The translations under genes were made by a program, and so were the position numbers. The notes beneath the pieces are model-generated. The model searched no databases. It had not been told where the DNA came from and saw only the letters and a program-made list of their open reading frames with translations. Shown here piece by piece: positions 792 to 63,704 of a DNA stretch of 64,000 nucleotides. This DNA is from a phage. The stretch is from the sequence record PZ049338.1. The stretch is one strand, 5' to 3'. Each line of letters starts with the position of its first letter. Within the stretch, counting starts at the first letter, position 1.

Positions 792-813
792 GTTAATCCA
801 CATATATTAAGAG
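792..813 (+). promoter_or_regulatory. Copy D of conserved 22-bp motif GTTAATCCACATATAT(A/T)AAGAG; candidate phage-specific promoter
   Basis: Near-identical 22-mer also found at 21677-21698, 44433-44454 and 63683-63704 (all on - strand); this copy faces rightward toward the late block. Confidence 0.3.
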
Positions 814-1418
814 ATAATCCCTTAATACGTCCTACTTAAAACATTCTAGGTTATCCCTTCCTACCTTGTCAACCTTACTTAGAAAATTCTTTCTTCTGGT
901 TGACTCACCTGATAGTTACTTGGCTATTCAGCTTCACTATCTGGTATGTGGTAGATTATAGGTTTAACCTTTCTACCTTGTCAATAAGATATTTTAATTT
1001 ATCTTGCTGACCTTTACTACCTATCAGGCTTTCGCGTTGTTGCTGCGTCGTCCTGATATGATTAACTATACGCAATCTTTTCAGATATGCAAACTAATAT
1101 TTTAATTATTTTCTAACTTTCTTTCATCTCACTGATTTATAACGGATTATTTCTTGATATTCTTTCTTGATTCAGTGGATAAGATACGGGATACGGCTTA
1201 TCTATCCCATCTATAGCGTCACCTTTCCACCTGGACAAATTGGAACATCAATCACCTTATCTATTCCCTACCTTTCCAGCTCATAGATTCATGCCTGATT
1301 GATGATCTTTCTTGTGAGCTGGAAGCTAAGAGATAACACCGCATGAATTAAAACTAGATAAAGGGCACTAGATAGAAACATGCGGAACGTTATCCCATAC
1401 GTCTTAATTGCTATTACA

Positions 1419-1447
1419 CGGAAGAAAGGAAAGGAAGAAAGGAAGAA
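1419..1447. repeat. Short tandem repeat (GGAAGAAA-like units, about 3 copies)
   Basis: Direct reading: aggaaaggaagaaaggaagaaaggaaga. Confidence 0.6.
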
Positions 1448-1560
1448 AGGAAGATACACCATACGGATTAATGCTTATCAAACTATCGTCGGGTAACGGT
1501 GCAATGATTAAGATTGATGCGACCAATGGTCGTGTTATGACCTGCGGTCATGCGTACCTA

Positions 1561-1722
1561 TTATCAAAGTCAACAATCAAACGATGATTATCAAAGACGA
1601 TTATCAAACGATAACTATCAAAGACGATTATCAAACGATAACCATCAAAGGATAACTATCAAAGGATAACTATCAAAGGATAACTATCAAAGGATAACTA
1701 TCAAAGGATAACTATCAAAGGC
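1561..1722. repeat. Tandem array of 14-bp units GATAACTATCAAAG (5 perfect copies preceded by degenerate copies); iteron-like
   Basis: Direct reading of perfect head-to-tail 14-mers at ~1651-1720 and variants (cgattatcaaa, gataaccatcaaag) upstream. Confidence 0.8.
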
Positions 1723-2843
1723 TGGCATTTTAAACACCGACGTTTTAGCCTCACAAAATAACGGGAAGAAATATAGCTCAGGATACTTACTATTAGTAAG
1801 AACATAACCATGCTGGTTATTATTACCATGCTATCTATGCGATGGCTTATCATTAGGTAGCTAACTATAACATCGTGCATCATATTCCATTGGTATCATT
1901 AGATGACTAATCATGTGCGTGCATAGTATATCACTTGAGATAATAACGCATGAATACTATATCACTTCCCATTATCAGCGGAGGTATATTAATCCCGTGA
2001 ACTAATAGCCAACTAATTACTTATGATATAGTTGCCAATGTTATTAATAGATGAGGTATGGTATCATTTGTATATTAATAATAAGCAAGCTATCTATTCA
2101 CTGGATGCAATTACAGTATTGTGCTTCATCCAATAGGCTGTATAATCGTTGTTACATTGTTAACGGTATATGTGCCGACCCACTTCCCCCTTTTTAAAAG
2201 TTGTGTGCGCAGCTAGCCCCCTATACCACCGCGTGAGAGTATGAGAATGAGGATACCCTAACCAATTAATGGGTGAGAGTGATTGCCCGTGGGTATGACC
2301 TCCCATCAGACAGTACTCATGACCTCCCATCTATCAGTGTCAGTAGAGGCCGAAGGCCTTGGTCTTACCAAAGGTAAGTGACTTCCCATCTATTTTCACT
2401 TTCTTTCAGTGTAAACAGTGTAAATCTGTAAGAAAATTGAAAATTTTGAACTAAAGTTCATGTACGAAGGAGATAGAGATTGATAAGAGATTCTTAAACA
2501 GTTTCTTATATATCTCCTTCTTATCCATTCTTATATATCCTCTCTTCTCTCCTCTATAAAAGCCCCTCTTATATTTAAAAATCCATAAACCAATTACGCT
2601 GAACAAGAAGAAAGTATAAAGGAGGTTATGACCTTCCATCTGATTGATAAGATGAGTACCCATCAACTATTTTAATCTTTTCAGTGTAAGTCTGTAATGT
2701 TTTCCATTTATCAGTGCTATATGTAACTGTAGCATCTATAAGGTTTATGTAATTAATAAATAGATAGATGGGTGGATGGTGGGAACTACATTCGCTGGAA
2801 GCGAAACTATTGCTTCTGGCAATTATTAATTGAAGGAGTGAAC

Positions 2844-3230
2844 ATGTCTGACAATAACGAATTACTTGATTCCATTGTTGAAGGTCGCTCCGTCAAGACT
2901 GGACAGTTTGTGAAGGGTAATACTCAAGGTAAGGGCCGTCCGAAAGGTAGCCGAAACAAAATGACTCAACGAATGTTGAATCGTGTTGCTGAACGAAGTG
3001 AAGATGGTTTGTCTATGGAAGAAATCATGATGGATATCGCCCAAGACCCTCAAATGCCAGCAGAGCTTCGCTTTAAAGCAGCAGCTAAAGTTTCTGACCT
3101 CGTTTATCCTAAAGCATCTTCTGTTGAAGTTAAGATGGACGATAAAGAAAGCATGACTAAAGAACAGATTGATGCTCGCCTTAAAGCTTTGCTTAGTGGT
3201 GGCCATACAACTGAAGACACTGAGGACTAA
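2844..3230 (+). CDS. Putative terminase small subunit
   Basis: ATG at 2844 preceded by GAAGGAG; basic N-terminal GKGRPKGSRNK-type motif; ~0.5 kb upstream of large terminase. ORF-track start at 2772 looks like an upstream extension. Confidence 0.4.
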   Translation: MSDNNELLDSIVEGRSVKTGQFVKGNTQGKGRPKGSRNKMTQRMLNRVAERSEDGLSMEEIMMDIAQDPQMPAELRFKAAAKVSDLVYPKASSVEVKMDDKESMTKEQIDARLKALLSGGHTTEDTED

Positions 3231-3232
3231 AT

Positions 3233-3469
3233 ATGATTGGACTGATATTTGATATTCTTATTCCACGCTTCCGTACTTCTGATTTTTGCCTTGAGGGTAA
3301 TGATGCTGAAGGTTATGACGCTGTGTGTGAATATACGTCACGAGATGTAGGAGAACGCTTCGATAAGATAGCAAGTATCAGTTACTTTCAACTCTTCGGG
3401 TTTGTTCTGTTTCCTAAAGTACATCTAGATTCGATTCGTACGTTTACAAGAGAAGACGTACTGAAATAA
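3233..3469 (+). CDS. Hypothetical protein (78 aa)
   Basis: ORF starting 3 nt after the previous stop; no recognisable domain. Confidence 0.25.
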   Translation: MIGLIFDILIPRFRTSDFCLEGNDAEGYDAVCEYTSRDVGERFDKIASISYFQLFGFVLFPKVHLDSIRTFTREDVLK

Positions 3470-9101: not shown

Positions 9102-10067
9102 ATGGCAGATACTACTTTAGTTTCTTATGACCTGAATGGTAAGAAACTTTCCTTTGCAAACTGGATTTCTAACCTGTCTCCTACCGAGACCCCGTTCGTT
9201 TCCATGACTGGCAAAGAAGCAATTAATCAGACTCTGTTCCAATGGCAGACTGATACGCTGGAAACCGCTAACCCGAACAACGCAGTTGTTGAAGGTTCTG
9301 CTGCTGAAGCTCCAGTTCGTAGCTCTACCACTGTACTGAACAACGTTACTCAGATTCTGCGTAAAGTGGTTCGTGTTTCTGATACCGCAAACGCTCTGGC
9401 GAACTACGGTCGTGGTCAGGAACTCCAGTACCAGATGGAAAAAGCTGGTAAAGAAATCAAGCGTGACCTCGAAGTTGCTCTGCTGCGTAACGGCGCTAAA
9501 GTTGACGGTAACGGCACTACTGCTCGTAAGACCGCTGGCTTTACTGCTCTGGTTGCTGCTAAAGGTGTAGCTGACCCGGACACTGGTGCTGTTGTTCATA
9601 AAGAGACTGCTGTTAAGTCTAAGATTTCTGAAGCAGAACTGTTTGACCTGACGTACAACCTGTACCTGTCTGGTTCTAACGCGAACATCATCATGTTCCA
9701 CCCGAAACACGCAAGCTTCTTCGCTTCCCTGATGGACACTCCGGCTGCTGGTACTAACCGCATGAAGATGTTCGACGGTAGCGATACTAAGTTTAACCAG
9801 TATGTTTCTAGCGTAGTTGACCCGCTGGGTCAGTTGTACAAGCTGATTCCTAACCGTTGGATGGATGAGACTGAGATCTACTTCTTCACTCCTTCTGACT
9901 GGGATGCTGCTCGAATGGATTGGGGTAGTCGTGGTACTACCACTGTTGCTGGTGCTCACGAACACGCATTGCGTATTACTGGTGGTATCTTCTCTCAAGG
10001 TGATAACCAGAAGCACAACAACATTCAACCATTCATTACTGTATATATGTGGCGTCGCATTTCTTAA
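9102..10067 (+). CDS. Putative major capsid protein (321 aa)
   Basis: Strong SD (AGAGGAGAA), follows scaffold gene, structured leader, codon usage typical of a highly expressed gene. Confidence 0.6.
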   Translation: MADTTLVSYDLNGKKLSFANWISNLSPTETPFVSMTGKEAINQTLFQWQTDTLETANPNNAVVEGSAAEAPVRSSTTVLNNVTQILRKVVRVSDTANALANYGRGQELQYQMEKAGKEIKRDLEVALLRNGAKVDGNGTTARKTAGFTALVAAKGVADPDTGAVVHKETAVKSKISEAELFDLTYNLYLSGSNANIIMFHPKHASFFASLMDTPAAGTNRMKMFDGSDTKFNQYVSSVVDPLGQLYKLIPNRWMDETEIYFFTPSDWDAARMDWGSRGTTTVAGAHEHALRITGGIFSQGDNQKHNNIQPFITVYMWRRIS

Positions 10068-13291: not shown

Positions 13292-14152
13292 ATGGGTAAT
13301 ATCTTATCAGCAATCACAGATGGTGCTTTGGATTCTATCAAAAGCCCCCTTAAGGTTGTAAAAGACATTGGTAAAGGTGATTTCAGCGGGGCATTTAAAA
13401 ACCTCAAACACATTCCCGGTAACCAAGAACGTGCTAACAAAGAGATTCTTCAATCTGCTGGTGTCCGAGGTTGGGTTGGTGACTATCCCGGTGAAAGTGC
13501 TGCTGCAATAGTTGGTTCTATCTTTGGCGGTGCAGCCCTTATGGGTGGTGGAGCAGCCGCAGCCGGTGGTGCTGGGGCAGCAGGTGCTGGAGGTGCTGCG
13601 GGTGGTTCTGCTGCTCTTGGTGGTGCAGGTGCTGCCGGATATTTAGCACCTACTGCTGCTGGAGGTGTTGGTGCCACAGGTGCTGGCAGTAGCTTAGTAT
13701 CTACAGGTGCTCTCTCAGCTATCAGTTCCCAAGCCCCATCTACTGCTGCACTGTTACAGATGGGTAATGCTGGGGTTGGTGCATCTACAGCAACTGCTGG
13801 TGCTTCGTCCTTTACTCCTGCAATGTTAACAACTCAAGGTGCTGCTGCATCTGGCGGTACTTATGGTGCTGCTTCTGCTCCTGCAATTGCATTGCAAACA
13901 CCTGCTGCCGGTGGTGCTTCTGCTGGAAGCTCTACAATGTCAAACCCTGAAACTTGGAATCAAATCTCTAAACTTGTGAACAGTGTTAAAAAACCAGAGC
14001 AAGAGAACCAAACACTTGCACCTGTTCCAATGGGTTCGGGACATCGAGGTAACTTCAACTTCGACCGTAAGAATTTCCAAAATCAGGCACTAACTCAAAC
14101 GTATGGTGAACTTTATAATAAACCTACGAAAACACCGAATATTAAATTCTAA
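13292..14152 (+). CDS. Gly/Ala-rich low-complexity virion protein (286 aa)
   Basis: ~110-aa G/A tract (GGAAAAGGAGAAGAGG...); strong SD. Confidence 0.4.
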   Translation: MGNILSAITDGALDSIKSPLKVVKDIGKGDFSGAFKNLKHIPGNQERANKEILQSAGVRGWVGDYPGESAAAIVGSIFGGAALMGGGAAAAGGAGAAGAGGAAGGSAALGGAGAAGYLAPTAAGGVGATGAGSSLVSTGALSAISSQAPSTAALLQMGNAGVGASTATAGASSFTPAMLTTQGAAASGGTYGAASAPAIALQTPAAGGASAGSSTMSNPETWNQISKLVNSVKKPEQENQTLAPVPMGSGHRGNFNFDRKNFQNQALTQTYGELYNKPTKTPNIKF

Positions 14153-14163
14153 GGAGAGATTAG

Positions 14164-14718
14164 ATGGCTACTAACGCCTACTTAGAGCGCATGAATCAGC
14201 TCCGTTCAGAAAGACGTCAAGTTAAAACTAGACAGTTAGAAGAAATGGGTGTTCCGATTCGTCGCCCAGAACAACATAGTAATTATAATGGTGCTTCACC
14301 TTCAGGTGTTCCTACTGGAGAAGCTCCTATCCCTCAAGAAGATGAATCATACAAAGACTCCCACTTCTATAATGCGTTTGAAGGTTATAAACAGCGTGAT
14401 GAGAAGTTTGGTAGTGTCATTGATGAACTCACTGAGTTAGCTACAGGTCTTCGTGAGCAGGTTAAACTAGGGTATATGCCTGAGCAAGTTGCTCGTCAAC
14501 GATTGACACAATTCGTAGGTGATACTCAACAGCAATTTGTACGTGCTAAGCCTCAACTGGAAAAAGAAAAGCAGAATAAGCAAATGGAAGCAATGTTAGG
14601 TGTATTAACTGGTGTTACACAGCAACAGCAGATGCAACAGCAGCAAGCCAAAGCTAACGAGCCTATCCCAGCAGAGGGTATTTCAGCAGAAGAAGCACAA
14701 CAAAGGGGAGGTTGGTAA
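14164..14718 (+). CDS. Hypothetical virion protein (184 aa), Q-rich C-terminus
   Basis: SD AAGGAGAGA; in structural operon. Confidence 0.4.
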   Translation: MATNAYLERMNQLRSERRQVKTRQLEEMGVPIRRPEQHSNYNGASPSGVPTGEAPIPQEDESYKDSHFYNAFEGYKQRDEKFGSVIDELTELATGLREQVKLGYMPEQVARQRLTQFVGDTQQQFVRAKPQLEKEKQNKQMEAMLGVLTGVTQQQQMQQQQAKANEPIPAEGISAEEAQQRGGW

Positions 14719-16361
14719 TGGCTGATTCTAACAGCCTGTCATTTGGTGCTCTCGCACTGAATACTGGCATTAATAATTTAAAGAAGGTTGTTAATCCTGT
14801 TATTAACACCTCTCTCGCTGAAAATGATTTCAAAGAGCAGAATGGTCGGTATCCAAACTCTAAGGATGAGTTGAATACTTTTATCAAGCAGGGTGGTCAA
14901 TCTGAACGTGACCGTCGTAATCCTGCTCCAACTCCTGCTCCTGCACAAGCGGCTCCAGAACAAGCTCCGGGTGAACCATTTAACCCATCTAGTCTGTTAG
15001 TTCCAGTGCAGAAACATCTTCCTACTCAACAGACACCTGATAGTGCTCAGGATAAGGCCGCACAGCAACGTGGGGCTCTTAATCAGCAAGCACAAGGCAA
15101 AGCCCAAGCTGTTGCGAAAGCACGCTCACAGGGCTACCAGGACGTTCCTAATGCTGCTCAAGACCCAGCGGGTAACTTAGCTGCTCGTAACGCTAACAAA
15201 GCTGCTGGTGTGGGTGGTACTTCTGGTGAGATTAACTTTAATAAAGAAGGCGAAGTACCTTCTCCTCAACAAGCTCAGAACATGCAGCTTGACCAATTGG
15301 GTAAGAAGACAGCCTTCAATATGGATGATATGCCTGAGTGGTATGAGTCTAATTCGTTTAACTATGGACTCATTTCTTTTGGTCTCAATCTGTTATCTGG
15401 TAACGATTTGGCTACCTCTTTTGGTGCCGCTGGTGAAGCTTTCTCTTCTATGTATGGGCAAGAGCGTCGTCAGATGTGGGCGCAAGATTTGATTAGTCAG
15501 GGATATTCCCCTACAGAGGTTGAAGAGTACATCCGTACTGGTAAGTCTGACGTATTGACCGACCCGATGGAGAAACAGGCTAAGCAGATTCAAATGGCTA
15601 CTGGTTTGGCTAATCTGGAAGCTATTCAGTACGAGAACTCTGATGAAGAGCGTCAGTACAAGAAAGACCAAGATAAGTTTGAACGTGATATCAAGATTCA
15701 GCAACTCAATGATTCCCGTGCTGCTCGTGCTGAAAGTGCTGCCCTCCGTCGTGAACAGATGGCTATCAATCAGGAGGAAAGAGAGTTACGTCGTCAAGAG
15801 CGTGCTGAGAAAGCTGCTGCGAAGGGTCAGGAGTATAAAGAAAGCTTGGCTAAGGCTGAGAACTGGTATACCCGTGCTCGTCAAGGTTATAAGAACTACG
15901 AAGATACAGTTAAGAGTTATGGTGGTGTTAACAACATTTACTCCGATAGTGCTTTAGGTAAGATTACTCAGGCTGCACTGACTGATGCTGTGTTCTCTGG
16001 TACCTCTGTCAAAGAAGCTGTTTCGAAGGGTGTTGACGAGAAGTTCGTTACCACTGTTAACCGTGAACGTGAGTTCTTGGCTCCTCTGCTCCGTAAGGAC
16101 TCTGGTGCTGCAATCTCTCAATCTGAATGGAAAACTACGGGTGAGATTTACTTCCCACGTCCGGGTGATACCCAGCAAACGATTGACCAGAAAGCTCAAT
16201 CTCGTGTTGTAGCAATGTTGGCAACCAACCCTCATGCATCTGGTGAACTCCGTGGTGCAGTTGATGCTTACACTCGTGGTGAGATTTCCTCTCTCCGTGA
16301 GAAAGGTGGTCGAGTTTATGCTCAATTACCAGACGGAAGGTGGTTGGAAATCCAACAATAA
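14718..16361 (+). CDS. Putative internal virion protein (~547 aa) with coiled-coil segment
   Basis: ATG at 14718 overlaps upstream stop (TAATG) with GGGGAGG SD; ORF-track start 14712 is a TTG extension. Confidence 0.45.
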   Translation: MADSNSLSFGALALNTGINNLKKVVNPVINTSLAENDFKEQNGRYPNSKDELNTFIKQGGQSERDRRNPAPTPAPAQAAPEQAPGEPFNPSSLLVPVQKHLPTQQTPDSAQDKAAQQRGALNQQAQGKAQAVAKARSQGYQDVPNAAQDPAGNLAARNANKAAGVGGTSGEINFNKEGEVPSPQQAQNMQLDQLGKKTAFNMDDMPEWYESNSFNYGLISFGLNLLSGNDLATSFGAAGEAFSSMYGQERRQMWAQDLISQGYSPTEVEEYIRTGKSDVLTDPMEKQAKQIQMATGLANLEAIQYENSDEERQYKKDQDKFERDIKIQQLNDSRAARAESAALRREQMAINQEERELRRQERAEKAAAKGQEYKESLAKAENWYTRARQGYKNYEDTVKSYGGVNNIYSDSALGKITQAALTDAVFSGTSVKEAVSKGVDEKFVTTVNREREFLAPLLRKDSGAAISQSEWKTTGEIYFPRPGDTQQTIDQKAQSRVVAMLATNPHASGELRGAVDAYTRGEISSLREKGGRVYAQLPDGRWLEIQQ

Positions 16362-16376
16362 TATTGGAGATGATAA

Positions 16377-19300
16377 ATGAATTTTGTGACTGACCCTAAA
16401 TTGCTTGAGGAGTTAAACGCAGGATTCAATCCACAGGGGGCTTCGGCCCCTTCGGTTGATTCCCAAACTCAAACCGCTCCACAGGAAGCAGAAACTAACT
16501 GGGGTATTTACGCTAAAGAAGATGGTTCCATTATGGACACTATCGGTTCTGGTTTGACCAGGATGGGGCGTGCTACCGCAGCAGCTATGGTTCCTAGTGA
16601 TGATGAGGACATGTCGGATTACGCATTAGCTCGCGCTCGACGTGCTAACGCAGAGTACAAAGCTGATGCTGAAAAGCTTGGTGTTGCAGGTCAGGTAGTT
16701 GCAGGTGCTGCAACATATGCCCCTGTTATTGCCGCTGGTATTGCTAACCCTCTGGCAGGTGCTGCTATGATGGGTGGTGCTACTACTGCTGACTCTCTTG
16801 CTGCACAGATTGATAACAATCAAGATTTAGACCTTAACAGTGCAATTGCTGCCGGTGCTGCATCAGCAGGTGTCGACCTTGCTACAATGGGACTCGCCTC
16901 TCGTGGCATGAATGTTGCTAAGGAATTAACATCCCCTGTTAAGCGTGCAATTGCCGGTACTGGTATACAAGCAACTCAGGGTGCTACTTCTAACGCAGCA
17001 GCTCAAGCTGCTATTAACTTAGCATCTGGTCGTCCTTGGAATGAAGGTCTGATAGAAGCTGCTGCCATTGGTGGTGTTGCAGGTGGTGGTTTACATGCTA
17101 CCCTCTCTGGATTGAACCACTCTGCAGGCACTCCACCTAATAAGGGTGGTCAGAAGGCTACAGAAGACCAAGTTAAGTTCGAAACCAAAGATGGGATTAC
17201 TCCTACGGGTGATTATCGTAATCAAGTGTACGAATACGCAAACCAACGTCACCAGTATGATGAAGACATTAACAACATCGACATTGATGATACTAATGGT
17301 TTGGATGCCGCTGTAAATGCTAAAGTAGGCATGGCACTTAACAACGGTACTGCCTCTGCTATTCAGGGCACTGCTAAGCTGTTAGATAAGTTTAAAGTAC
17401 CTAAGACTATTAACTTCTGGGATATGGATGTTGGTAATGGTATCAGTAGCCAACCTGTTGGTAACATAGCTCGCGATTGGTTCAATTTCAGTGACAAAGA
17501 CCTGTTGAAAGCTGGTGAATCTATTGGCCGTGCCAAGCAGACATTGACTGGACGTACCAAAGCACTGGAACAGGGTGAGTTTGAGGAATCCTTCCTTCGT
17601 CAGATGAAAGACTCTTACGATAAGGCCCAAAACGACATCTTAGGGCGTGCAGAATCCAACTGGCGTACCGTCGATAACATTCGTTCACAAATGACCGGTG
17701 CAGAGCGTCCTATGCGTGATTCTCTGAATATCCTGTCTCGTAACCTTGAAGACTACTCTAAGATGGTACGTGATGCCAACTTAGGTAAAGCCCCTAACAC
17801 CGATACTCTCCGTGCTGTTGTAGAAAGCATTGAAGTTAATGCTAAGAAGACTGGACTTCGTGACAAGCTGAAATCTCTTGTAGATGACGCTGAGCAGTTT
17901 GATGGTATCACAAACTTAGAGTCTGCACTGTTGTTTGCAAAAGGTGCTCAGAAGGTTGCTCCTGGCATCCATCGTGCTAACCCTGACCCACTGAAAGCAT
18001 CAAGCCAGAAGGCTGATATGCTGGATGCTGCTGCTGTTGCAACAGGTCAGTTCTGGTTACCTGTGGCTCGTCGTGGTCTTCGTGAGATTGGCGGTAAACG
18101 TTCTCAAGCTCGTTTGCGTGGTGAGAAGGCTCAAGGTGAAGTTGTTTCTCAATCCTTGGCTCGTGACCCACGTCCTGATTTTGTTAACCAAGCTGCTCAG
18201 CGTGGTGATTTCAAAGGTGCTGCTGATGAAGCTGCTGCTGATTTGGAATCAATGGGTATTTCTACTGGTCAGAAAGATGTATGGGGTCGTGAAGCCGAGG
18301 CTGCACCTGTACAAGAGACTGCACCAATCCAAGAAGCCCCGGTTACTCCGGAACCTAAAGTCGATGTTTGGGGTCGTCCTCGTGAGTTCACAGACCTGAC
18401 TGGTCGTGGAGTACGTGAGGCAGAAGCAGCTAAGGCTGAAGCAGAGGCCGCTAACGCACCTGTGGTAGACCCAGAAGCAGAAGCCCAGATAAGGTTCAAC
18501 CTTGGTGAAAGACTCGCTCAGGATGCTCGTGTGGACGCTCAGAGACGTGCTCCTGCACCAGAACCTGAACCTGCATTCACGGATAAAGACTCTCGTCGTG
18601 TAGATGACTTGCAAACCAAACAGAACACCGATGGTTTAACATCCTCTGAAGCTCGTGAACTTGAGTCACTTATTCAGCGTAAGCCTACGCCTGAAGTTAA
18701 GGAAGCAGAACCTGAAGCCCCTAAGAAAGAAGGTGTTAAAGCTTCTGAACTGGCTCGTAAACCCATCTCTGATAAGATTAAAGAGTTCAAGGAGTTGTCT
18801 CCTGAAGCTAAGAAAGACCCTCAACTGATTAACGAGTTTACTCGTAACAGACGTCTTCTCTCTGATGCTGATAAAGCTGTATCCTCTAAGGCTACTGCTA
18901 TGTCTGTTCCTCAGGAAGATATTTGGAGAATCATTGAACGTCAAGGTGGCTTGGAGTCTGTATTTAAGGATGGTCACTCTGCTGAACGTGGTCTGAATAT
19001 TCTTATGCAGAAAGATAAGATTGACTTGCAACGTAAAGCTGATATCGAAGCTAAGAATGCCGAAGATGCCGCTGACAGTGTTAATACTAAATCAGGGAAA
19101 GGTGAGACAACCTCTACTGATGAAGTTGATACTGGAAAGGTAATCGAAGACATGAAGAAAGACTTCATCTCTAAAGGTGTTTCTGGTGAGACATTTGAAG
19201 CTGCACAAGTCCGCGCTGAACAGACCCTTGGCCCAGATTATACACCAACGCAGTTAGCTAACGTTGTTAAATTACTGGCAAAAGAGAAAGCGGCTAAGGC

Positions 19301-20387
19301 TCGTGAAGAAGCTAAGAAGACTAGTAAAGCAGCTAAAACCTCTACTCCGGCAGCAACCCCTACCGTTGGTAGAACAATGCAAGACTCTTGGAATGATATT
19401 CATGGTTATGCACAGACACTCGGTGTTGATGCTGAACCTGAAATCCGTAAGGCACTTAAATCAGCCATGAACTCTGGTAACAAGGACAGGGCTAAATTTA
19501 AGGCACTTAGCGAGGCCAAGGAGCGTGAGTTGTACAACAAGGTAGACGACTTCATTGCAGAACAGCAGAAGGCCTACGAGCGTGCTTTAGCGGCTCCTAA
19601 GACCGAACAACCTGCTGAGTTGGGTGAATGGCGTAAGAAGGTTGCAGACCTCAAGAAACGTCGTGCTCGTGTTTCTAACTTCAATGACTGGCAGACTAAG
19701 AAAGCTAATGACCGCAAGGTAGTAGCAGAGAAAGCTATCAAAGAAGAAGAAGCTCGTACTAAGCGTTTAGAGGCTGAAGCTAAGAAGGCTGATGATGAAG
19801 CTAAGGCTGCTGAGAAGGCTATCAAAGATGCTGAAGAAGCTAAGGCAGCAGAGCAGAAGAAAATGGAAGAAGCTGTAGAGAAGGCTTTCGAAGAGAAAGA
19901 TATGGATGCTGATGTTATCGTAGAAGCTGGTTCCCAGTTGTTTGAGAAACTTGCTGCTCGTGTTAACAGTACAGATTCACCTGACTACAATAAGTTGAAA
20001 GCCATTATGACTGTTGTTGAGCGTAACCTGCCAGTTACCAAACTGAAAACAGGTGAACGTAATCAGGCTAAAGCTTTACTGCTGTCCCAGAAGGCACTGT
20101 TCGATGGTCTGGCTCGTAAAGCAGAGTTCCCGAACAATCCTGAATACTGGTTGTCTACAACAGAACGTGACTTAATTGGTGAAGCATACACTGGTAAGCA
20201 AGGGACTAAGGAGTACGGTTCCATGTATCAGCGTCTGCGTGCTGGTCTGTTCGAAGACGAATCAACTCGTGAGTATGTTCGATTCCCTATCGAGGCTCTG
20301 AATCGTAAGATTAAGAATCTTCGTAAGCGTGCTGAGAATACTACTGAACTTGGAGAGGGTGCTATTAACGTTCAGGACATCAAGTAA
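16377..20387 (+). CDS. Large internal virion / DNA-ejection protein (1336 aa), tape-measure-like
   Basis: Size and position comparable to T7 gp16-class proteins; long Ala/Lys/Glu coiled-coil C-terminal region; no catalytic motif recognised. Confidence 0.45.
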   Translation: MNFVTDPKLLEELNAGFNPQGASAPSVDSQTQTAPQEAETNWGIYAKEDGSIMDTIGSGLTRMGRATAAAMVPSDDEDMSDYALARARRANAEYKADAEKLGVAGQVVAGAATYAPVIAAGIANPLAGAAMMGGATTADSLAAQIDNNQDLDLNSAIAAGAASAGVDLATMGLASRGMNVAKELTSPVKRAIAGTGIQATQGATSNAAAQAAINLASGRPWNEGLIEAAAIGGVAGGGLHATLSGLNHSAGTPPNKGGQKATEDQVKFETKDGITPTGDYRNQVYEYANQRHQYDEDINNIDIDDTNGLDAAVNAKVGMALNNGTASAIQGTAKLLDKFKVPKTINFWDMDVGNGISSQPVGNIARDWFNFSDKDLLKAGESIGRAKQTLTGRTKALEQGEFEESFLRQMKDSYDKAQNDILGRAESNWRTVDNIRSQMTGAERPMRDSLNILSRNLEDYSKMVRDANLGKAPNTDTLRAVVESIEVNAKKTGLRDKLKSLVDDAEQFDGITNLESALLFAKGAQKVAPGIHRANPDPLKASSQKADMLDAAAVATGQFWLPVARRGLREIGGKRSQARLRGEKAQGEVVSQSLARDPRPDFVNQAAQRGDFKGAADEAAADLESMGISTGQKDVWGREAEAAPVQETAPIQEAPVTPEPKVDVWGRPREFTDLTGRGVREAEAAKAEAEAANAPVVDPEAEAQIRFNLGERLAQDARVDAQRRAPAPEPEPAFTDKDSRRVDDLQTKQNTDGLTSSEARELESLIQRKPTPEVKEAEPEAPKKEGVKASELARKPISDKIKEFKELSPEAKKDPQLINEFTRNRRLLSDADKAVSSKATAMSVPQEDIWRIIERQGGLESVFKDGHSAERGLNILMQKDKIDLQRKADIEAKNAEDAADSVNTKSGKGETTSTDEVDTGKVIEDMKKDFISKGVSGETFEAAQVRAEQTLGPDYTPTQLANVVKLLAKEKAAKAREEAKKTSKAAKTSTPAATPTVGRTMQDSWNDIHGYAQTLGVDAEPEIRKALKSAMNSGNKDRAKFKALSEAKERELYNKVDDFIAEQQKAYERALAAPKTEQPAELGEWRKKVADLKKRRARVSNFNDWQTKKANDRKVVAEKAIKEEEARTKRLEAEAKKADDEAKAAEKAIKDAEEAKAAEQKKMEEAVEKAFEEKDMDADVIVEAGSQLFEKLAARVNSTDSPDYNKLKAIMTVVERNLPVTKLKTGERNQAKALLLSQKALFDGLARKAEFPNNPEYWLSTTERDLIGEAYTGKQGTKEYGSMYQRLRAGLFEDESTREYVRFPIEALNRKIKNLRKRAENTTELGEGAINVQDIK

Positions 20388-20466
20388 TTGTAAGGTGTTG
20401 CAAATTATGGCACTAATATAGTTTGTGACACACTTGCAGATTCACCGTACCTGAATAGGACTTGAT

Positions 20467-20598
20467 AATGAACGAATATAAACTTCCTTCGAACAAAGAT
20501 AAAGATTTCTGGGAACGTAATAACGAATCTCGGAAAGAAAGCAAAATCACCAAAAAGAAGGGAGATAAAAACCCTTGGACTCCATACCGGAGTTGGTA
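20467..20598 (+). CDS. Small basic ORF (43 aa)
   Basis: ATG ORF not in track (under 60 aa), immediately followed by terminator. Confidence 0.2.
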
Positions 20599-21603: not shown

Positions 21604-21609
21604 GATATA

Positions 21610-21634
21610 GGGGAATATTAATTTCCCCTTTTTT
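21610..21634 (+). terminator. Rho-independent terminator ending the late block
   Basis: GGGGAA-tattaat-TTCCCC followed by TTTTTT. Confidence 0.6.
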
Positions 21635-21676: not shown

Positions 21677-21698
21677 CTCTTTATATATGTGGATTAAC
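21677..21698 (-). promoter_or_regulatory. Copy A of conserved 22-bp promoter-like motif, pointing leftward into the 21610-21634 hairpin
   Basis: Reverse complement reads GTTAATCCACATATATAAAGAG. Confidence 0.3.
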
Positions 21699-21831
21699 TC
21701 CACCCTATATAATAATAAAGACTGAGGTTAATTATCAGTGAAATAATAACTAGAACCAGTGGAATCATCCAATTGTCAAGAAAATTAAGTATTGACAGTG
21801 CTATCTTGTTCATACTTTGTAATCCACTCCT

Positions 21832-27997: not shown

Positions 27998-28567
27998 TTA
28001 ACTCTGGAAGTTTACTGATTCTCTGTCAATGTTAGCGACTAATTGACTTCGAATACGATGGAGACTGACGTAAATGTTATTTGAAGACATGCCATACTTA
28101 TTGGCAACATCTTTAGTCGTGAGGTTCTTCAGGTAAACATCGGTGAACAATTCACGTTCTGATTCCTTAAGAGTCTCAAAAGCTCTCTGAACAAACGAGG
28201 AAGCTTCATCGGCTAGTAACTCACGAACAGGGTCAGTTAACCCATTATCATGGCATTCAAATTCGAGGACATTATCGTACATCTCCGTATCAACTCTGTC
28301 GAACTCTCGGCGTACATAACCATAACGAACATTGTTCGCAATAGTACCTATAACACCGCCTAACTTATCCCACTGGATTCTGTCCCAATACTGCCAAATC
28401 CTTAGCAGAGTTTCTTGAGCCAAATCTTCAGCCAGATGGTAATCTTTTTCCATGTAGTAGAATTGTTTCTGGAGAGGTTTCCAGAACTCTTCGTACAACT
28501 CTTCAAAAGTATATGTTTCTCGTTTTGGAGTAGGGGCACTAATTCTCTTAGCCATCATACATTCCAT
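27998..28567 (-). CDS. Phage-encoded sigma-70 family (ECF-like) sigma factor
   Basis: Region-2-like DLAQETLLRIWQYW and region-4 HTH LTTKDVANKYGMSSNNIYVSLHRIRSQL. Confidence 0.7.
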   Translation of the reverse strand: MECMMAKRISAPTPKRETYTFEELYEEFWKPLQKQFYYMEKDYHLAEDLAQETLLRIWQYWDRIQWDKLGGVIGTIANNVRYGYVRREFDRVDTEMYDNVLEFECHDNGLTDPVRELLADEASSFVQRAFETLKESERELFTDVYLKNLTTKDVANKYGMSSNNIYVSLHRIRSQLVANIDRESVNFQS

Positions 28568-44432: not shown

Positions 44433-44454
44433 TCTCTTTATATATGTGGATTAA
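44433..44454 (-). promoter_or_regulatory. Copy B of conserved 22-bp promoter-like motif
   Basis: Reverse complement GTTAATCCACATATATAAAGAG followed by AGATTCTTAATG (start codon). Confidence 0.35.
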
Positions 44455-44457
44455 CTA

Positions 44458-56280: not shown

Positions 56281-56546
56281 TACGCATCCCCGATATGTTT
56301 ACATTCAACTTTAACACGGACAACCTGAGTATCAGCCAGTGGTGCGCTGACATTACCAGTCTCGATGTTAGTCAGGTGTACGCGGTGGTATCCCGGAAGA
56401 GCATTAATACTAACATTTGAGGAGTTGGCTACATCACCAACTAGGTAAAGAGTGTCGCCATTAACAAAACGAACAACTTCACCGGGTTTTGCTTGACAAA
56501 GACCAATAACTTTTGGCATTGGTACTTTTGATTTTGTCACTTTCAT
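56280..56546 (-). CDS. Small protein, member of 6-copy paralog family
   Basis: VRFVNGDTLYLVGD...INALPG motif. Confidence 0.4.
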   Translation of the reverse strand: MKVTKSKVPMPKVIGLCQAKPGEVVRFVNGDTLYLVGDVANSSNVSINALPGYHRVHLTNIETGNVSAPLADTQVVRVKVECKHIGDA

Positions 56547-56848
56547 TTATGTAACCTCAGGAATACATGTAACACAGTGGATGCACGGTTAGTAACTGAA
56601 TTAACCGAACGGTTTAGCTTCTTTGCAATCCAATCGCGAGGACGAATACCAGCCCACTTGCGAATGAAGTCATCATCCTTGTCAGTGTAAGGTTGACGCT
56701 GTTTTGCACGGGAGATTTTGAATCGTGAGCAGGCACCAATGATAACCGTCACAGTAGTACCCATCTTTTCAGCCACTTCTTCAACTGAATACTTCTTAAT
56801 CAAACGTTCTAAACGCTTGATGTTCTTATTTGTCCAAGTAAATTGCAT
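56543..56848 (-). CDS. HTH DNA-binding protein (101 aa)
   Basis: YSVEEVAEKMGTTVTVI helix-turn-helix-like segment. Confidence 0.35.
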   Translation of the reverse strand: MQFTWTNKNIKRLERLIKKYSVEEVAEKMGTTVTVIIGACSRFKISRAKQRQPYTDKDDDFIRKWAGIRPRDWIAKKLNRSVNSVTNRASTVLHVFLRLHK

Positions 56849-57118: not shown

Positions 57119-57871
57119 TTACGACTGGATAATGCTTTCTTGAGCCAGTTCATCTTTCACCTGTTTAAGTGTAAATGTATTGTCGTCACAATCAATACCA
57201 ATAGGGCCGATAATACGGTATTTAGTATTGCGAGTTTCAACAAAGAAAGTACCAACCTTCTCAGAGATATTTACTACACGGGAGGTACTGATTGACAACC
57301 CATCACGGAAAGGGTGATTTCCGTGAGTGTGGGTATCGCTCCAGATTCGACCAGTCATGTACCAGTTGCTATCATTGGACTTGTAAATGATAGCAGATGA
57401 CAGTTTGGCGTCGAATTGTGGAATTGGTAATGGGACATAACCTTCACGCAGTATCGGATTTTGTTCATCCGGCATTTGAGTGAAAGGCTTCATCTCAAAC
57501 ATTATTTCAAAGTCACGAGCCCATTGGCGAATCCGTTTTGGATTTAAACCATTGACACGTTTGAAGTAACCCTGCTGATGTTCAGCACTGATTAATTCAT
57601 ATGACAAATCCAAATCCGTACGATGAACAGTGGAACACATCATCATAAGGTATTCATGACGACCACACCACACGTAAAGAAGATGTCCAATCTCCTCTTT
57701 AGTGAAATCTGTCGCTTCCGCCAGACGGTCAGTGATACCAAGCGCCAGTGGTTCAGGGAAACGCTTGTAGAAAAGGATTGGGAACTTCTCAATAAGTTCC
57801 GGCATACGACGCTTATAGAAATCGTACTGAACAGGGGTAACAGGGCGAAGTTTTACGCGTTGAGTTGTCAT
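57119..57871 (-). CDS. Protein with ProQ/FinO-like N-terminal RNA-binding domain
   Basis: LIEKFPILFY...PLALGITDRL...LLYVWCGRHEYL parallels E. coli ProQ N-terminal domain pattern. Confidence 0.4.
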   Translation of the reverse strand: MTTQRVKLRPVTPVQYDFYKRRMPELIEKFPILFYKRFPEPLALGITDRLAEATDFTKEEIGHLLYVWCGRHEYLMMMCSTVHRTDLDLSYELISAEHQQGYFKRVNGLNPKRIRQWARDFEIMFEMKPFTQMPDEQNPILREGYVPLPIPQFDAKLSSAIIYKSNDSNWYMTGRIWSDTHTHGNHPFRDGLSISTSRVVNISEKVGTFFVETRNTKYRIIGPIGIDCDDNTFTLKQVKDELAQESIIQS

Positions 57872-61898: not shown

Positions 61899-61900
61899 TG

Positions 61901-62143
61901 CTACCCCTTAACCTTTGAACGGTCAGTGATAACTAATTCAGGTCTTTTAATAACTTGGTCAGCAATCTTGAAAGGTTCAATAGTACCTGTCTCAAGACAC
62001 ACTGAGTTATATAGTGTTTTTGATGCACCGACAACACCATCAGTCTTGAGGTAGATGTCACCATCATACTCAAAACACTCACCGATGATTAAAGAGCCAA
62101 ATGGTGTTGTATTTTGTTTAGGTTTTAAGAACTCCATCACCAA
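61901..62143 (-). CDS. Small protein, member of 6-copy paralog family
   Basis: FEYDGDIYLKTD...NSVCLETG core. Confidence 0.4.
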   Translation of the reverse strand: MVMEFLKPKQNTTPFGSLIIGECFEYDGDIYLKTDGVVGASKTLYNSVCLETGTIEPFKIADQVIKRPELVITDRSKVKG

Positions 62144-62883
62144 CCCTCCATAGGGAATTCGAGATAGACCTGAGCATTAACACGAATTTCGTTCGTGATT
62201 CGGCTTGTACGGTCAGTGTTACGAGATACACGACCGAACCAACGCCACCCATTTGAGACGGCCTTAGTGCCCGTGTGCCACGTTTGCCAATCAAACTGAT
62301 ACAATGTACGGTCTTGGGCAACAACACGCTCCAGAGCGCCTACAGACAGCTTCTGTAGCACTTCTTTATGCCACTGGCGGTAGATTAATTCTCCGTCAGG
62401 TATTTGGCTGAAGTAGCTAGAGCCAATAGCAAAATCAGTAGGACATACATCAGCGTTGACCAGACCGAGGATGTGCTCCGAATGGTAAGCAGGATTGTCA
62501 TAATCAGGCTGACCAGCAGTGATAAAGTGCTGACCAGTAGGAATGGGAGGACGTGGTACGTCGTCATGATGGAATCCTGGAATTGCTGGATACCAACCCG
62601 GCATCAACATATGGACGCGGGAATCAAATACGCATTCATCAGCCAACCAATCATCTGGAAGGTTGTTGATAAAGCTGCGAGTGATAGGGCCACCGTTCTC
62701 CCATGCGAAATTTAAATCACAATTGAAGAACATTTGCTCGTTCTTGATTTCATCATTACTAATGCCTGATGCAAAAGAACCGAGCGGGTTTACTTTCGAG
62801 TGGAATATCTTTTCGGAGTTCATTTTAGGAACCTTTAACAGCGAAAGAGACAGCCTCATTAAGTGAGCGGAATCGTCCAACAT
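62137..62883 (-). CDS. Hypothetical protein (248 aa); possible Fe/2OG-oxygenase-like HxD...H pattern (weak)
   Basis: PGFHHDD...H segment; start uncertain (internal Met ~62823). Confidence 0.3.
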   Translation of the reverse strand: MLDDSAHLMRLSLSLLKVPKMNSEKIFHSKVNPLGSFASGISNDEIKNEQMFFNCDLNFAWENGGPITRSFINNLPDDWLADECVFDSRVHMLMPGWYPAIPGFHHDDVPRPPIPTGQHFITAGQPDYDNPAYHSEHILGLVNADVCPTDFAIGSSYFSQIPDGELIYRQWHKEVLQKLSVGALERVVAQDRTLYQFDWQTWHTGTKAVSNGWRWFGRVSRNTDRTSRITNEIRVNAQVYLEFPMEGW

Positions 62884-62997
62884 ACATACCTGCGGCAGAT
62901 GTTACAACGAACCACTGACCAATGTGAGAGATACCAGCGATGCGGCGATTATCATCATCAGCCACACGCCAGTAATCAGTGTGTATTTGCTTTACCT

Positions 62998-63279
62998 TCA
63001 TAAATCAAATCGCATACCAGCGTACTTGTACAGAGCGCGTTCTTCAGGCTCCATTGCGAATATTTTAAGTGTATTTGGCTCTTCATTTAGGTAATGCTTA
63101 GCAACACGTTCGATTTGGTCACGGCAGCTTTTAATATCAGCGTGCTCACTATAGCCAACAAATGAACTATACAGCACACCATTTAATTTGAAACCGATAC
63201 GCTGGATACGTGTTGGTGCTTTAATCCAAGGCATATTCGCGTTGGTGTACTCTTTAACGTAGATGGTAACAGTCGTCAC
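62998..63279 (-). CDS. Hypothetical protein (93 aa)
   Basis: ORF. Confidence 0.35.
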   Translation of the reverse strand: MTTVTIYVKEYTNANMPWIKAPTRIQRIGFKLNGVLYSSFVGYSEHADIKSCRDQIERVAKHYLNEEPNTLKIFAMEPEERALYKYAGMRFDL

Positions 63280-63290
63280 AGTAGTAACTC

Positions 63291-63674
63291 CTATCTGATA
63301 TGAGGGAGGGCATGGATGATTTCTCTTTGCTTCTCACTTTCAAAGTCAAACGAATCATCATCAAGCGGTAATAAAAACTTGGTTGCAATAAGTGCGTAAC
63401 CTATATCTAATATTTCACCTTGACCGGTTACAAAACCTTCACTGTAAATAATTGCAAGTTCATCCATATCTTCACCACAATTAAAGTAACCAATGCGGCC
63501 ATTGTGATTGATATGGGATACGAATACATAACCATCTTGCTCTGGATTGTATACAGCATCAGCACCATTAAGGATTTGATTAACAATAACTGATTTACCA
63601 ACCAGTTGAGCACGACCTTCGGGAGAGCGAGCACCGATTACCAGTGCCAGTTTACCTTCTTGAATACCACTCAT
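63291..63674 (-). CDS. Hypothetical protein (127 aa), first gene after promoter-like motif copy C
   Basis: ATG 8 nt downstream of the 22-bp motif. Confidence 0.45.
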   Translation of the reverse strand: MSGIQEGKLALVIGARSPEGRAQLVGKSVIVNQILNGADAVYNPEQDGYVFVSHINHNGRIGYFNCGEDMDELAIIYSEGFVTGQGEILDIGYALIATKFLLPLDDDSFDFESEKQREIIHALPHIR

Positions 63675-63682
63675 AAGAATAC

Positions 63683-63704
63683 CTCTTATTATATGTGGAT
63701 TAAC
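63683..63704 (-). promoter_or_regulatory. Copy C of conserved 22-bp promoter-like motif
   Basis: Reverse complement GTTAATCCACATATAATAAGAG followed by GTATTCTTATG (start codon). Confidence 0.35.

What the first reader, a model, noticed from the sequence alone, without database searches (positions are those of the whole stretch)
792..63704. Conserved 22-bp motif in four copies, likely a phage-specific promoter
GTTAATCCACATATAT(A/T)AAGAG occurs at 792-813 (+), 21677-21698 (-), 44433-44454 (-) and 63683-63704 (-). In copies B and C it sits 8 nt upstream of an ATG and is followed by the conserved ATTCTTA(A)TG, consistent with a promoter whose 3' end doubles as a ribosome-binding region. Its orientation matches the direction of the flanking gene blocks. 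A phage sigma factor is encoded in the window and may be what recognises it.
Basis: seen in the sequence. Interest (0 to 1): 0.6.

Follow-up and report, generated by a model that had tools for sequence, protein, structure and literature searches.

The report
Unmapped promoter-like motif in phage
A 23-base sequence repeated four times in this phage genome is real, is conserved across related phages and looks like a transcription start signal, but it is not the known target of the phage's own sigma factor, so what reads it is still unknown.

Summary
The four copies exist (791-813 +, 21677-21699 -, 44434-44456 -, 63683-63705 -; expected by chance 0.01). The window is a 7-11/phiEco32-like podophage, 97% identical to the plasmid-dependent Salmonella phage PKM.Hi.22.6. 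The same element occurs in 4-6 copies in phages 7-11, GAP52, Privateer and CsaP_009. Its core CACAT is invariant, its upstream block is lineage-specific (AGTTAATC or AATTATTG), and AAGRG follows. The layout is always the same: one copy faces the early sigma-70 promoters at the head of the late-gene side, and the others are co-directional with the leftward genes, mostly abutting a ribosome-binding site and ATG. The 81%-identical sigma of phage 7-11 has experimentally mapped promoters, GTAAtg-N16-aCTA (Lavysh 2022). Orthologues of six of these lie elsewhere in the window. Phage LAh_8 keeps that sigma and such promoters but lacks the motif. No phage RNA polymerase gene was found, and the copies have no -35 element. 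The best reading is a second, unmapped promoter class for host RNA polymerase, directed by an unidentified phage factor (confidence about 0.4). Rivals are a regulator-binding site, an RNA-level signal, or a nick site. The papers I could search do not describe it. In passing, eight tf-type nick-consensus sites (TACTRTGMC) all lie on the minus strand.

The parts
791..813 (+). Motif copy A, AGTTAATCCACATATATTAAGAG. No gene follows for about 2 kb. It lies about +24 to +46 downstream of the leftward early promoter at 872-843 and points against it.
21677..21699 (-). Motif copy B, AGTTAATCCACATATATAAAGAG. It lies after the last leftward gene (21832-22551) and is followed by about 45 nt of AT-rich DNA and then the bidirectional terminator.
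44434..44456 (-). Motif copy C. It fills the 33-nt gap between ORF 44458-44997 and ORF 43888-44424. Its AAGAG lies 9 nt before the ATG at 44424.
63683..63705 (-). Motif copy D, AGTTAATCCACATATAATAAGAG. Its AAGAG lies 8 nt before the ATG at 63674 of ORF 63291-63674. About 290 nt of non-coding DNA lies upstream.
843..872 (-). Context: leftward sigma-70-type early promoter TTGACA-N18-TAGAAT (11/12), which fires through copy A in antisense.
   Evidence: orthologous 7-11 promoters validated in PMC8948821
955..984 (-). Context: second leftward sigma-70-type early promoter, TTGACA-N18-TATAAT (12/12).
21609..21629 (.). Context: bidirectional intrinsic-terminator hairpin at the point where the rightward and leftward gene blocks converge, about 48 nt downstream of copy B.
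27998..28567 (-). Context: phage sigma factor gene, orthologue of 7-11 gp47. Its known promoter type is GTAAtg-N16-aCTA, not the motif.
2694..2719 (+). Context: orthologue of the validated 7-11 late promoter P1 (GTAATG-N16-GCTA), the probable true sigma-dependent promoter ahead of the late genes. Further orthologues start at 8961, 14067 and 20390 (+) and at 29669 and 36211 (-). Further candidates start at 2428 (+) and at 40781 and 43160 (-).
   Evidence: sequence-conserved with 7-11 sites 1637, 8366, 21918, 29211, 38580, 47456

Best explanation
The motif is a transcription start signal of a second, so far unmapped promoter class shared by 7-11-like phages (Moazamivirus, the PKM.Hi.22.6 lineage, Crifsvirus, Privateervirus). 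Host RNA polymerase probably uses it, directed by a phage-encoded specificity factor that is not yet identified and is not the sigma factor of ORF 27998-28567 acting in its known mode. The invariant CACAT would act as the -10-like melting element. The lineage-specific block just upstream (AGTTAATC or AATTATTG) would be the site read by the co-evolving factor. Transcription would start in the AAGRG that follows, so the RNA begins at the ribosome-binding site of the next gene. Copies C and D would restart or boost transcription inside the long leftward operon. Copy A fires rightward, head-on into the two early sigma-70 promoters and on towards the repeat-rich non-coding region and the late genes, so it may help switch early transcription off. 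Copy B makes only a short RNA that ends at the terminator. Shown here: the sequence, copy number, positions, orientation, conservation, and distinctness from the mapped sigma promoters. Inferred: that it is a promoter, where transcription starts, and that a separate reader exists.
For: (1) The element is not chance: 4 copies against 0.01 expected, and 16 of 23 positions are identical in all four copies. (2) It is conserved across the family with one architecture. 7-11 has 5 clear copies, GAP52 has 6, Privateer has 4, and CsaP_009 has 2 within 20 kb of its sigma gene. Within a genome 14-18 nt are identical in every copy, far more information than a sigma-70 -10 element carries. (3) Across the window, 7-11, GAP52 and Privateer, all 15 copies that are not of the A type are co-directional with the leftward gene block they lie in. 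Eleven of the 19 copies are followed by SD plus 6-9 nt plus a start codon, often of non-orthologous genes. (4) In every genome exactly one copy is on the other strand, 20-90 nt downstream of and opposing a leftward consensus sigma-70 early promoter (7-11 promoter annotation; validated in PMC8948821). An RNA-level signal could not work there, because no rightward promoter lies upstream of it. (5) In GAP52, Privateer and CsaP_009 one copy heads the operon that ends in the sigma gene. That would supply the initial, sigma-independent expression which Lavysh et al. could not explain. (6) Motif copies and sigma-type promoters occur in tandem ahead of the same gene groups, as expected for two temporal promoter classes. 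(7) The upstream block differs between lineages although the hosts' RNA polymerases are nearly identical and the sigma-type promoter consensus stays the same. This points to a separate, co-evolving phage-encoded reader. (8) If CACAT is the -10-like element and the start lies 6-9 nt downstream, as at gp47 promoters (6-8 nt at gp36 promoters), the start falls in AAGRG.
Against: No transcription start has been mapped at any copy. Lavysh et al. found only early and late classes in 7-11 and reported no over-represented motif, although they did not probe these sites. No -35-like element is conserved, and a sigma-70 match reaches only 7-10 of 12. No reader was identified. The immediate-early proteins have no recognisable domain, and the candidates from phyletic profiling gave only weak hints. 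Copies A and B have no gene to express. The tight link to the ribosome-binding site also fits an RNA-level role.
Confidence: 0.4

Rival explanations
1. One reading: the motif is a promoter read by the phage sigma factor (ORF 27998-28567), perhaps in a -35-independent mode.
For: The sigma factor is real. The -10 element of its mapped promoters is often (C)ACTA, which resembles the motif core CACATA apart from one extra base. In 7-11 most copies carry GTAAAT, which resembles the -35 element GTAAtg. Lavysh et al. never tested the motif.
Against: The mapped consensus of the 81%-identical orthologue is bipartite, GTAAtg-N16-aCTA. The motif copies have no such pair at the correct spacing. The window copies carry GTTAAT, and it sits only 2 nt from the core. 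The sigma-type consensus is unchanged in GAP52 and Privateer while the motif's upstream block differs. The sigma's region 2 and region 4 residues are largely invariant across five genera. LAh_8 has the sigma and sigma-type promoters but no motif. Several copies sit in the region transcribed early in 7-11.
Confidence: 0.1
2. The motif is a -35-less promoter used by unmodified host sigma-70 holoenzyme, with TATAAT-like bases just after CACAT serving as the -10 element.
For: A perfect TATAAT or a TAnnnT hexamer follows CACAT in most copies: window D, three 7-11 copies, three GAP52 copies and all Privateer copies.
Against: Window copies B and C have no TAnnnT hexamer. The -35 matches are 2-3 of 6, and no TG extension is present. 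The predicted start would lie within or after the ribosome-binding site, leaving a 6-8 nt leader without one. A host-only reader does not explain a 14-18 nt invariant block that switches between phage lineages infecting closely related hosts.
Confidence: 0.08
3. The motif is the binding site of a phage DNA-binding regulator that is not itself a promoter. It could be a polar roadblock or insulator that stops RNA polymerase arriving from the antisense side. Copy A would then shut off the early promoters, and copy B would back up the terminator against late read-through.
For: Copies A and B sit at the divergence and convergence points of transcription. This arrangement is conserved in four genera. 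High information content with low copy number suits a dedicated DNA-binding protein.
Against: This does not explain why 11 of 19 copies sit at a fixed distance from an SD and start codon. It also does not explain why the AAGRG part is kept in copies without a gene. No conserved dyad symmetry is present. Early 5' ends stay constant through 7-11 infection, though that assay would not detect a block downstream of the primer.
Confidence: 0.15
4. The motif works in RNA, as a processing site or a translational operator or enhancer at the start of selected cistrons in the long polycistronic transcripts.
For: The 3' part of the motif is a ribosome-binding site 6-9 nt before a start codon in 11 of 19 copies. 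Bases between the SD and the ATG (ATTCT) are also conserved in the window and in 7-11. The family encodes a ProQ/FinO-domain RNA-binding protein.
Against: The A-type copy is on the strand opposite to early transcription with no rightward promoter upstream, so it would not be present in RNA unless it is itself a promoter. A- and B-type copies have no cistron yet are conserved in four genera. No secondary structure stands out (z = -1.7 for the B downstream RNA), and Rfam gives no match.
Confidence: 0.12
5. The motif is a DNA-level site for nicking, packaging or replication initiation.
For: PhageTerm found odd, strand-specific termini in SeKF_80 and 'novel end types' in Privateer. The 7-11 and GAP52 records were opened within or 3 nt after the A-type copy. 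Copy number (4-6) is similar to that of phiKMV-type nicks.
Against: A much better nick candidate exists in the same genomes. This is the exact tf nick consensus TACTRTGMC, with 8 sites in the window, all on the minus strand. Nick, packaging or origin sites need not abut ribosome-binding sites.
Confidence: 0.07

Closest known systems
Late promoters of Salmonella phage 7-11 read by its sigma factor gp47 (GTAAtg-N16-aCTA; Lavysh et al. 2022, PMC8948821)
   Same: They belong to the same phage family and have a low copy number. They are phage-specific and intergenic, and they depend on the host core enzyme. The -10 element (C)ACTA resembles the motif core CACAT(A).
   Different: They are bipartite with a 16-nt spacer, whereas the motif is one contiguous block with no -35 partner. 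They sit at different genome positions. Their orthologues are present separately in the window. Their consensus is constant across genera, whereas the motif's upstream block changes.
[quoted passage not shown]
   Same: They are single-block promoters centred on the -10 region, with about six copies per genome. The start lies 6-8 nt downstream, and some copies lie directly before an SD and ATG (for example upstream of gene 6).
   Different: The sequence is different and phiEco32 has no copy of the motif. The gp36 residues that contact -11G fall in a segment missing from the window sigma. The window has no gp79-type co-factor according to PMC8948821.
T7, T3 and SP6 promoters of single-subunit phage RNA polymerases
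   Same: They are 23-bp contiguous, highly conserved elements. They have an AT-rich 5' part, a specificity block, a CAC..TATA core and a purine-rich start (SP6 GAAGAG against AAAGAG here). From memory of the published consensus sequences, 10-12 of 23 bases match T3 or SP6.
   Different: No single-subunit or two-barrel RNA polymerase gene is detectable in the window or its relatives. The resemblance is one of layout only.
T4 middle promoters (MotA box plus a sigma-70 -10 element, with sigma appropriation by MotA and AsiA)
   Same: The concept is the same: host sigma-70 polymerase is redirected by an early phage protein to promoters that lack a -35 element but carry a phage-specific box. One class of these also primes origins through short transcripts.
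   Different: The MotA box lies at -30, separated from the -10 element, whereas here the conserved block abuts the AT-rich part. MotA and AsiA homologues were not searched for specifically. This comparison rests on general knowledge.
Localized nick sites of phage tf (5'-TACT/RTGMC-3', PMC3517423)
   Same: They are short, strand-polarised sequences in several copies per genome in a related group of podophages.
   Different: The motif does not match that consensus. A different sequence in the window does, with 8 sites.

Membership tests
7-11 gp47-dependent late promoters | Bipartite consensus GTAAtg, 16-nt spacer, aCTA | tested here: not met
   None of the four window copies has GTAA plus N18 plus CTA in register. 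Only one 7-11 copy (58846) fits, and only with a 17-nt spacer. True matches orthologous to validated promoters lie elsewhere.
7-11 gp47-dependent late promoters | Transcribed by core RNA polymerase plus gp47 in vitro, with late kinetics in vivo | not testable with these tools
   This needs in vitro transcription or primer extension. The published work did not include motif sites.
phiEco32 gp36-dependent promoters | Single element tAATGTAtA 6-8 nt upstream of the start | tested here: not met
   The window has no exact TAATGTATA, and the 1-mismatch hits do not coincide with motif copies.
phiEco32 gp36-dependent promoters | A gp36-type sigma with the -10-reading residues E79, H80, Y83, R84, W90, S91, S94 and N95 | tested here: not met
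   The window sigma is 30% identical to gp36. E79-R84 fall in a deleted segment and W90 aligns with G. Only N95 is kept (with residues from PMC12276001).
Sigma-70 (housekeeping) promoters | -35 TTGACA and -10 TATAAT hexamers 16-18 bp apart, or a TG-extended -10 | tested here: not met
   The best combined scores are 7-10 of 12 over 19 copies, with -35 matches mostly 2-3 of 6 and no TG extension. Copies B and C lack a TAnnnT hexamer. The tool's scan lists no promoter at the motif copies it covered (A, B and D).
T7-like single-subunit RNA polymerase promoters | A phage-encoded single-subunit RNA polymerase in the same genome | tested here: not met
   The large ORFs of unknown function give no RNA polymerase family in Pfam or PHROGs and no PDB match. 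No DxDGD-type catalytic motif occurs in any long ORF of the window or of four relatives.
T7-like single-subunit RNA polymerase promoters | A contiguous conserved block of about 23 bp spanning the start site | tested here: met
   A 23-nt block is conserved with 16 invariant positions in the window and extends into AAGRG. Whether it spans the start site is inferred.
tf-type localized nick sites | Consensus 5'-TACT/RTGMC-3', with all sites on one strand | tested here: not met
   The motif does not contain the consensus. Eight separate TACTRTGMC sites, all on the minus strand, occur elsewhere in the window.
Known structured RNA families | A match to an Rfam covariance model or a tRNA | tested here: not met
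   The window has no Rfam match at gathering threshold and no tRNA.

The most novel reading that the evidence does not exclude
7-11-like phages have a third, unrecognised transcription class between early and late. An unknown early phage protein would retarget host RNA polymerase to a 23-bp single-block promoter whose transcripts begin at the ribosome-binding site. One copy is placed head-on against the early sigma-70 promoters as a built-in early shut-off and possible origin activator. In some genera another copy drives the first expression of the late sigma factor.
Probability: 0.3. Interest if true: 0.65.

Novelty: new variant of a known kind. Interest (0 to 1): 0.5.

Why it matters
Phage 7-11 is one of the few phages with an experimentally dissected sigma-factor cascade. 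The published model has only two classes and leaves two points open. It does not explain how 40 kb of early genes are transcribed from two promoters, and it does not explain how the late sigma gene is first expressed. A conserved, high-information, orientation-specific element that both published motif searches missed is a concrete and cheap thing to test, using primer extension at five known 7-11 positions. If it is a promoter, a new polymerase-redirecting factor should exist, and these factors have repeatedly been useful as probes and inhibitors of bacterial RNA polymerase. The close relatives of this window are plasmid-dependent phages proposed as tools against resistance plasmids, so knowing their gene-expression programme has practical value. 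If it is not a promoter, it is still a family-wide cis element of unknown function.

Tried and rejected
(1) Exact-pattern scans of IMG/VR with 14-20-nt versions of the motif returned mostly single chance hits in unrelated AT-rich contigs. Only the known isolates (7-11, Privateer, CsaP_009) had several copies, so no new relatives were gained.

(2) Sigma-based locus searches in IMG/VR found only the same isolates plus three distant contigs.

(3) The phiEco32 consensus TAATGTATA is absent from the motif sites.

(4) A search for a hidden phage RNA polymerase was negative: Pfam, PHROGs and PDB searches on large unknown ORFs, and a DxDGD regex.

- The 12 immediate-early proteins of PKM.Hi.22.6 have no known domain.
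- Twenty early-region ORFs of the window gave only a weak HTH, 'D5-like regulator' (56543-56848), which phiEco32 also has.
- Phyletic profiling looked for proteins present in motif-bearing genomes and absent from LAh_8 and phiEco32. It gave a 156-aa protein with a sub-threshold LytTR hit (E = 0.006) and a 143-aa protein next to the sigma operon.
- Profile searches of both against PDB sequences were negative.
- Only 7 homologues of the 143-aa protein were found. The AlphaFold model was poor (pLDDT 45), so no fold search was run. Its helix-helix-hairpin pattern is only a hint of a winged helix.

(6) Host alternative sigma factors were considered by eye only and were not tested with tools. The window-type core CCACATAT is one base from the sigma-32 -10 consensus recalled from memory. 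There is no -35 partner and the GAP52 type does not fit, so this was rejected.

(7) The regex GTAA-N18-NCTA alone is not enriched in the window (10 observed against 10.9 in shuffles). The sigma-type promoters are therefore claimed only where sequence and position are orthologous to validated 7-11 sites.

(8) Folding of the RNA downstream of copy B and of the non-coding stretch upstream of copy D gave no significant structure.

(9) A literature search for the motif strings found only unrelated primer sequences.

Full report
**Observation.** The 22-mer GTTAATCCACATATATWAAGAG occurs four times in the window with up to 3 mismatches. The sites are 792-813 (+), 21677-21698 (-), 44434-44455 (-) and 63683-63704 (-, one mismatch). 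Shuffles give 0.01 expected matches. A conserved A precedes each copy, making a 23-mer. Allowing 6 mismatches adds no further copy. All copies lie outside ORFs of at least 60 aa. The copies directly followed by an ATG are the third (9 nt) and fourth (8 nt), not 'B and C'. The second copy is followed by about 45 AT-rich bases and a bidirectional terminator hairpin at 21609-21629. The first copy is followed by about 2 kb without a gene.

**What the window is.** It is 97% identical to Salmonella phage PKM.Hi.22.6, apart from an 8.96-kb stretch of that genome that the window lacks. PKM.Hi.22.6 is a plasmid-dependent podophage of the family Grimontviridae. More distant relatives are 7-11, SE131, GAP52 and Privateer, and beyond them phiEco32. 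Late genes run rightward from about 2.8 to 21.6 kb. All other genes run leftward from the right end of the window down to 21.8 kb. Positions 1-2800 are non-coding and rich in repeats. They contain two consensus sigma-70 promoters pointing left, at 984-955 (12/12) and 872-843 (11/12). These correspond to the two early promoters validated in 7-11.

**Family-wide conservation.** Phage 7-11 is only about 75% identical in DNA, and only over parts of the compared stretch. It carries AGTWAATCCACATA followed by an AT-rich stretch and AAGRG at 30511, 58845, 71797 and 84140 (-) and at 89902 (+). A de novo word count shows an equivalent element in GAP52, AATTATTG-CACAT-TATWWT-AAGRG, in six copies. In Privateer it is ATTATTG-CACAT-AATATA..AGG, in four copies. 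CsaP_009 has the Privateer type. CACAT is invariant. The block upstream of it is identical within a genome (14-18 nt) but differs between lineages.

The layout is the same everywhere. One copy is on the plus strand in the large non-coding region. All others are on the minus strand and co-directional with the genes. Eleven of 19 copies are followed by an SD and a start codon 6-9 nt later, often of non-orthologous genes. The plus-strand copy always lies 20-90 nt downstream of, and opposite to, a leftward consensus sigma-70 promoter. This holds in the window, Privateer, GAP52 and 7-11. In GAP52, Privateer and CsaP_009 one copy heads the small operon that ends with the sigma gene. The copy at the end of the leftward block precedes PnuC or gp027 and the endonuclease and spanin genes in GAP52 and Privateer. 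In the window and in 7-11 those genes are on the other strand, and the copy faces only the terminator. LAh_8 and phiEco32 have no such element.

**The sigma factor and its real promoters.** ORF 27998-28567 has sigma-70 regions 2 and 4 above Pfam thresholds. It is homologous to phiEco32 gp36 (PDB 9m7y_F; 30% identity) and 81% identical to 7-11 gp47. Lavysh et al. 2022 mapped eight gp47-dependent promoters by primer extension, in vitro transcription and permanganate probing. The consensus is GTAAtg-N16-aCTA, upstream of genes 1, 8, 12, 16, 22, 28, 48 and 69. Early transcription comes from two sigma-70 promoters. The authors found no middle class, and their motif searches found nothing over-represented. 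Guzina and Djordjevic 2015 predicted a different motif. Neither paper mentions the present element, and a text search for its sequence found nothing relevant.

A pattern search recovers the eight published 7-11 sites and sequence-conserved orthologues of six of them in the window. These start at 2694, 8961, 14067 and 20390 (+) and at 29669 and 36211 (-). Further candidates start at 2428 (+) and at 40781 and 43160 (-). The same promoter type recurs at equivalent places in GAP52, Privateer and LAh_8. The loose pattern alone is not enriched, so these assignments rest on orthology. The sigma's DNA-reading regions are largely invariant across five genera. The sigma therefore has a known, different and evolutionarily stable specificity, while the motif changes between lineages and is absent from LAh_8.

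**What else could read it.** No phage RNA polymerase is detectable, so the host enzyme must be used if the motif is a promoter. Sigma-70 alone is unlikely. No -35 element is conserved, combined scores are 7-10 of 12, and two window copies lack a TAnnnT hexamer. The predicted start would also fall after the ribosome-binding site. A host-only reader would not explain a long invariant block that differs between phage lineages infecting closely related bacteria. The simplest account is a dedicated phage-encoded factor, which I could not identify. In the two related sigma systems the start lies 6-9 nt (gp47) or 6-8 nt (gp36) downstream of the -10 element. By analogy, a CACAT -10-like element would place the start in AAGRG, so the RNA would begin at the ribosome-binding site. 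This is inference.

**Rivals.**
- A non-promoter regulator site, such as a polar roadblock, fits copies A and B at the divergence and convergence points of transcription. It does not fit the fixed spacing to start codons.
- An RNA-level signal fits the link to the ribosome-binding site. It does not fit the A-type copy, which lies antisense to early transcription with no rightward promoter upstream.
- A nick or packaging site is suggested by the unusual strand-specific termini reported by PhageTerm for SeKF_80 and Privateer. It is also suggested by the 7-11 and GAP52 records being opened at the A-type copy. However, the genomes contain a much better nick candidate, described next.

**In passing.** The exact nick consensus of Pseudomonas phage tf, 5'-TACT/RTGMC-3', occurs eight times in the window, always on the minus strand. 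The expected number is 1.9, and none of 100 shuffles reached 8. The core of its extended form, ACTAC(T/G)GTGA, occurs 8-14 times, with strong strand bias, in the window, 7-11, GAP52, Privateer and LAh_8, and not at all in phiEco32. This family probably carries localized single-strand nicks.

**Verdict.** The element is a real, family-wide cis signal that the literature I could search does not describe. 'Promoter' is the best-supported class but is unproven. 'Read by the phage sigma factor' is contradicted by orthologue data. I rate it as a new variant of a known kind, of moderate interest.

Noticed in passing
window 23265, 33900, 43166, 45850, 52054, 56748, 61648, 63275 (all minus strand): There are eight exact matches to TACTRTGMC, the experimentally mapped nick consensus of Pseudomonas phage tf. 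All are on one strand (expected 1.9; 0 of 100 shuffles reached 8). The core of the extended form, ACTAC(T/G)GTGA, is similarly enriched and strand-biased in 7-11 (14), GAP52 (8), Privateer (11) and LAh_8 (9), and absent from phiEco32. It lies in coding and non-coding DNA alike. It probably marks localized single-strand nicks, which would explain the odd PhageTerm termini reported for SeKF_80 and Privateer. I found no report of this for the family.
   Followed up: partly
window 1-2800: This is a large non-coding region between the leftward early promoters and the first late gene. It holds a 14-bp tandem array (AACTATCAAAGGAT, 10.9 copies, 1572-1721) and a GGAAGAAA-type array (1420-1454). It also holds four exact TCCCATCTAT boxes (760, 1205, 2325, 2384, all +). 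It is a candidate replication origin or packaging region.
   Followed up: partly
window 955-984 and 843-872 (minus strand): Two near-perfect sigma-70 promoters (12/12 and 11/12) point leftward. They are the likely early promoters and are orthologous to those validated in 7-11. They transcribe through motif copy A in antisense.
   Followed up: yes
window 2694, 8961, 14067, 20390 (+); 29669, 36211 (-); candidates 2428 (+), 40781, 43160 (-): These are GTAAnn-N16-(C)ACTA sites. The first six are conserved in sequence and position with six of the eight experimentally validated gp47 promoters of phage 7-11. They are the probable true targets of the sigma factor encoded at 27998-28567.
   Followed up: yes
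window 9896-9902 (junction): Relative to PKM.Hi.22.6 the window lacks 8.96 kb (record 13407-22366), which carries a second capsid-related gene and the tail and tail-fibre genes. This phage therefore has a different or reduced host-recognition module from its plasmid-dependent relatives.
   Followed up: partly
window 57119-57871 (-): This 250-aa protein has a ProQ/FinO RNA-chaperone domain (Pfam PF04352, 37 bits, above the cut-off). It is of interest next to the short terminator-ended RNA that copy B would make, and because the relatives are plasmid-dependent phages.
   Followed up: no
window 29666-30097 (-): This conserved 143-aa protein of unknown function lies just upstream of the sigma operon. 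In GAP52, Privateer and CsaP_009 its gene is the one directly downstream of a motif copy. Its phyletic distribution matches that of the motif. Only 7 homologues were found among 5.8 billion proteins, and the AlphaFold model has low confidence (pLDDT 45).
   Followed up: partly
window 44976-44988 (-): A 13-nt partial motif copy (AGTTAATCCACAT) lies in codons 4-8 of ORF 44458-44997 (KLIHI). The GAP52 orthologue also starts with ..AAGTTAATCC. It is probably a coding coincidence rather than a fifth site.
   Followed up: yes
window 21600-21676 (-), 7-11 30420-30490 (-): The short stretch between copy B and the terminator keeps a conserved CTTACA(C) box in the window, 7-11, Privateer and CsaP_009. 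It could be a small RNA of about 75 nt. Folding shows no significant structure beyond the terminator hairpin.
   Followed up: partly
window 63706-63990 (-): About 290 nt of comparatively GC-rich non-coding sequence lies between the immediate-early genes (outside the window) and copy D. It has no terminator-like site on that strand, and its folding is not significant (z = -1.2).
   Followed up: partly
window 26519-26989 (-) and 56543-56848 (-): Two small proteins give weak DNA-binding hints: a sub-threshold LytTR hit (E = 0.006), and an HTH with PHROG annotation 'transcriptional regulator, D5-like'. Neither could be linked to the motif.
   Followed up: partly
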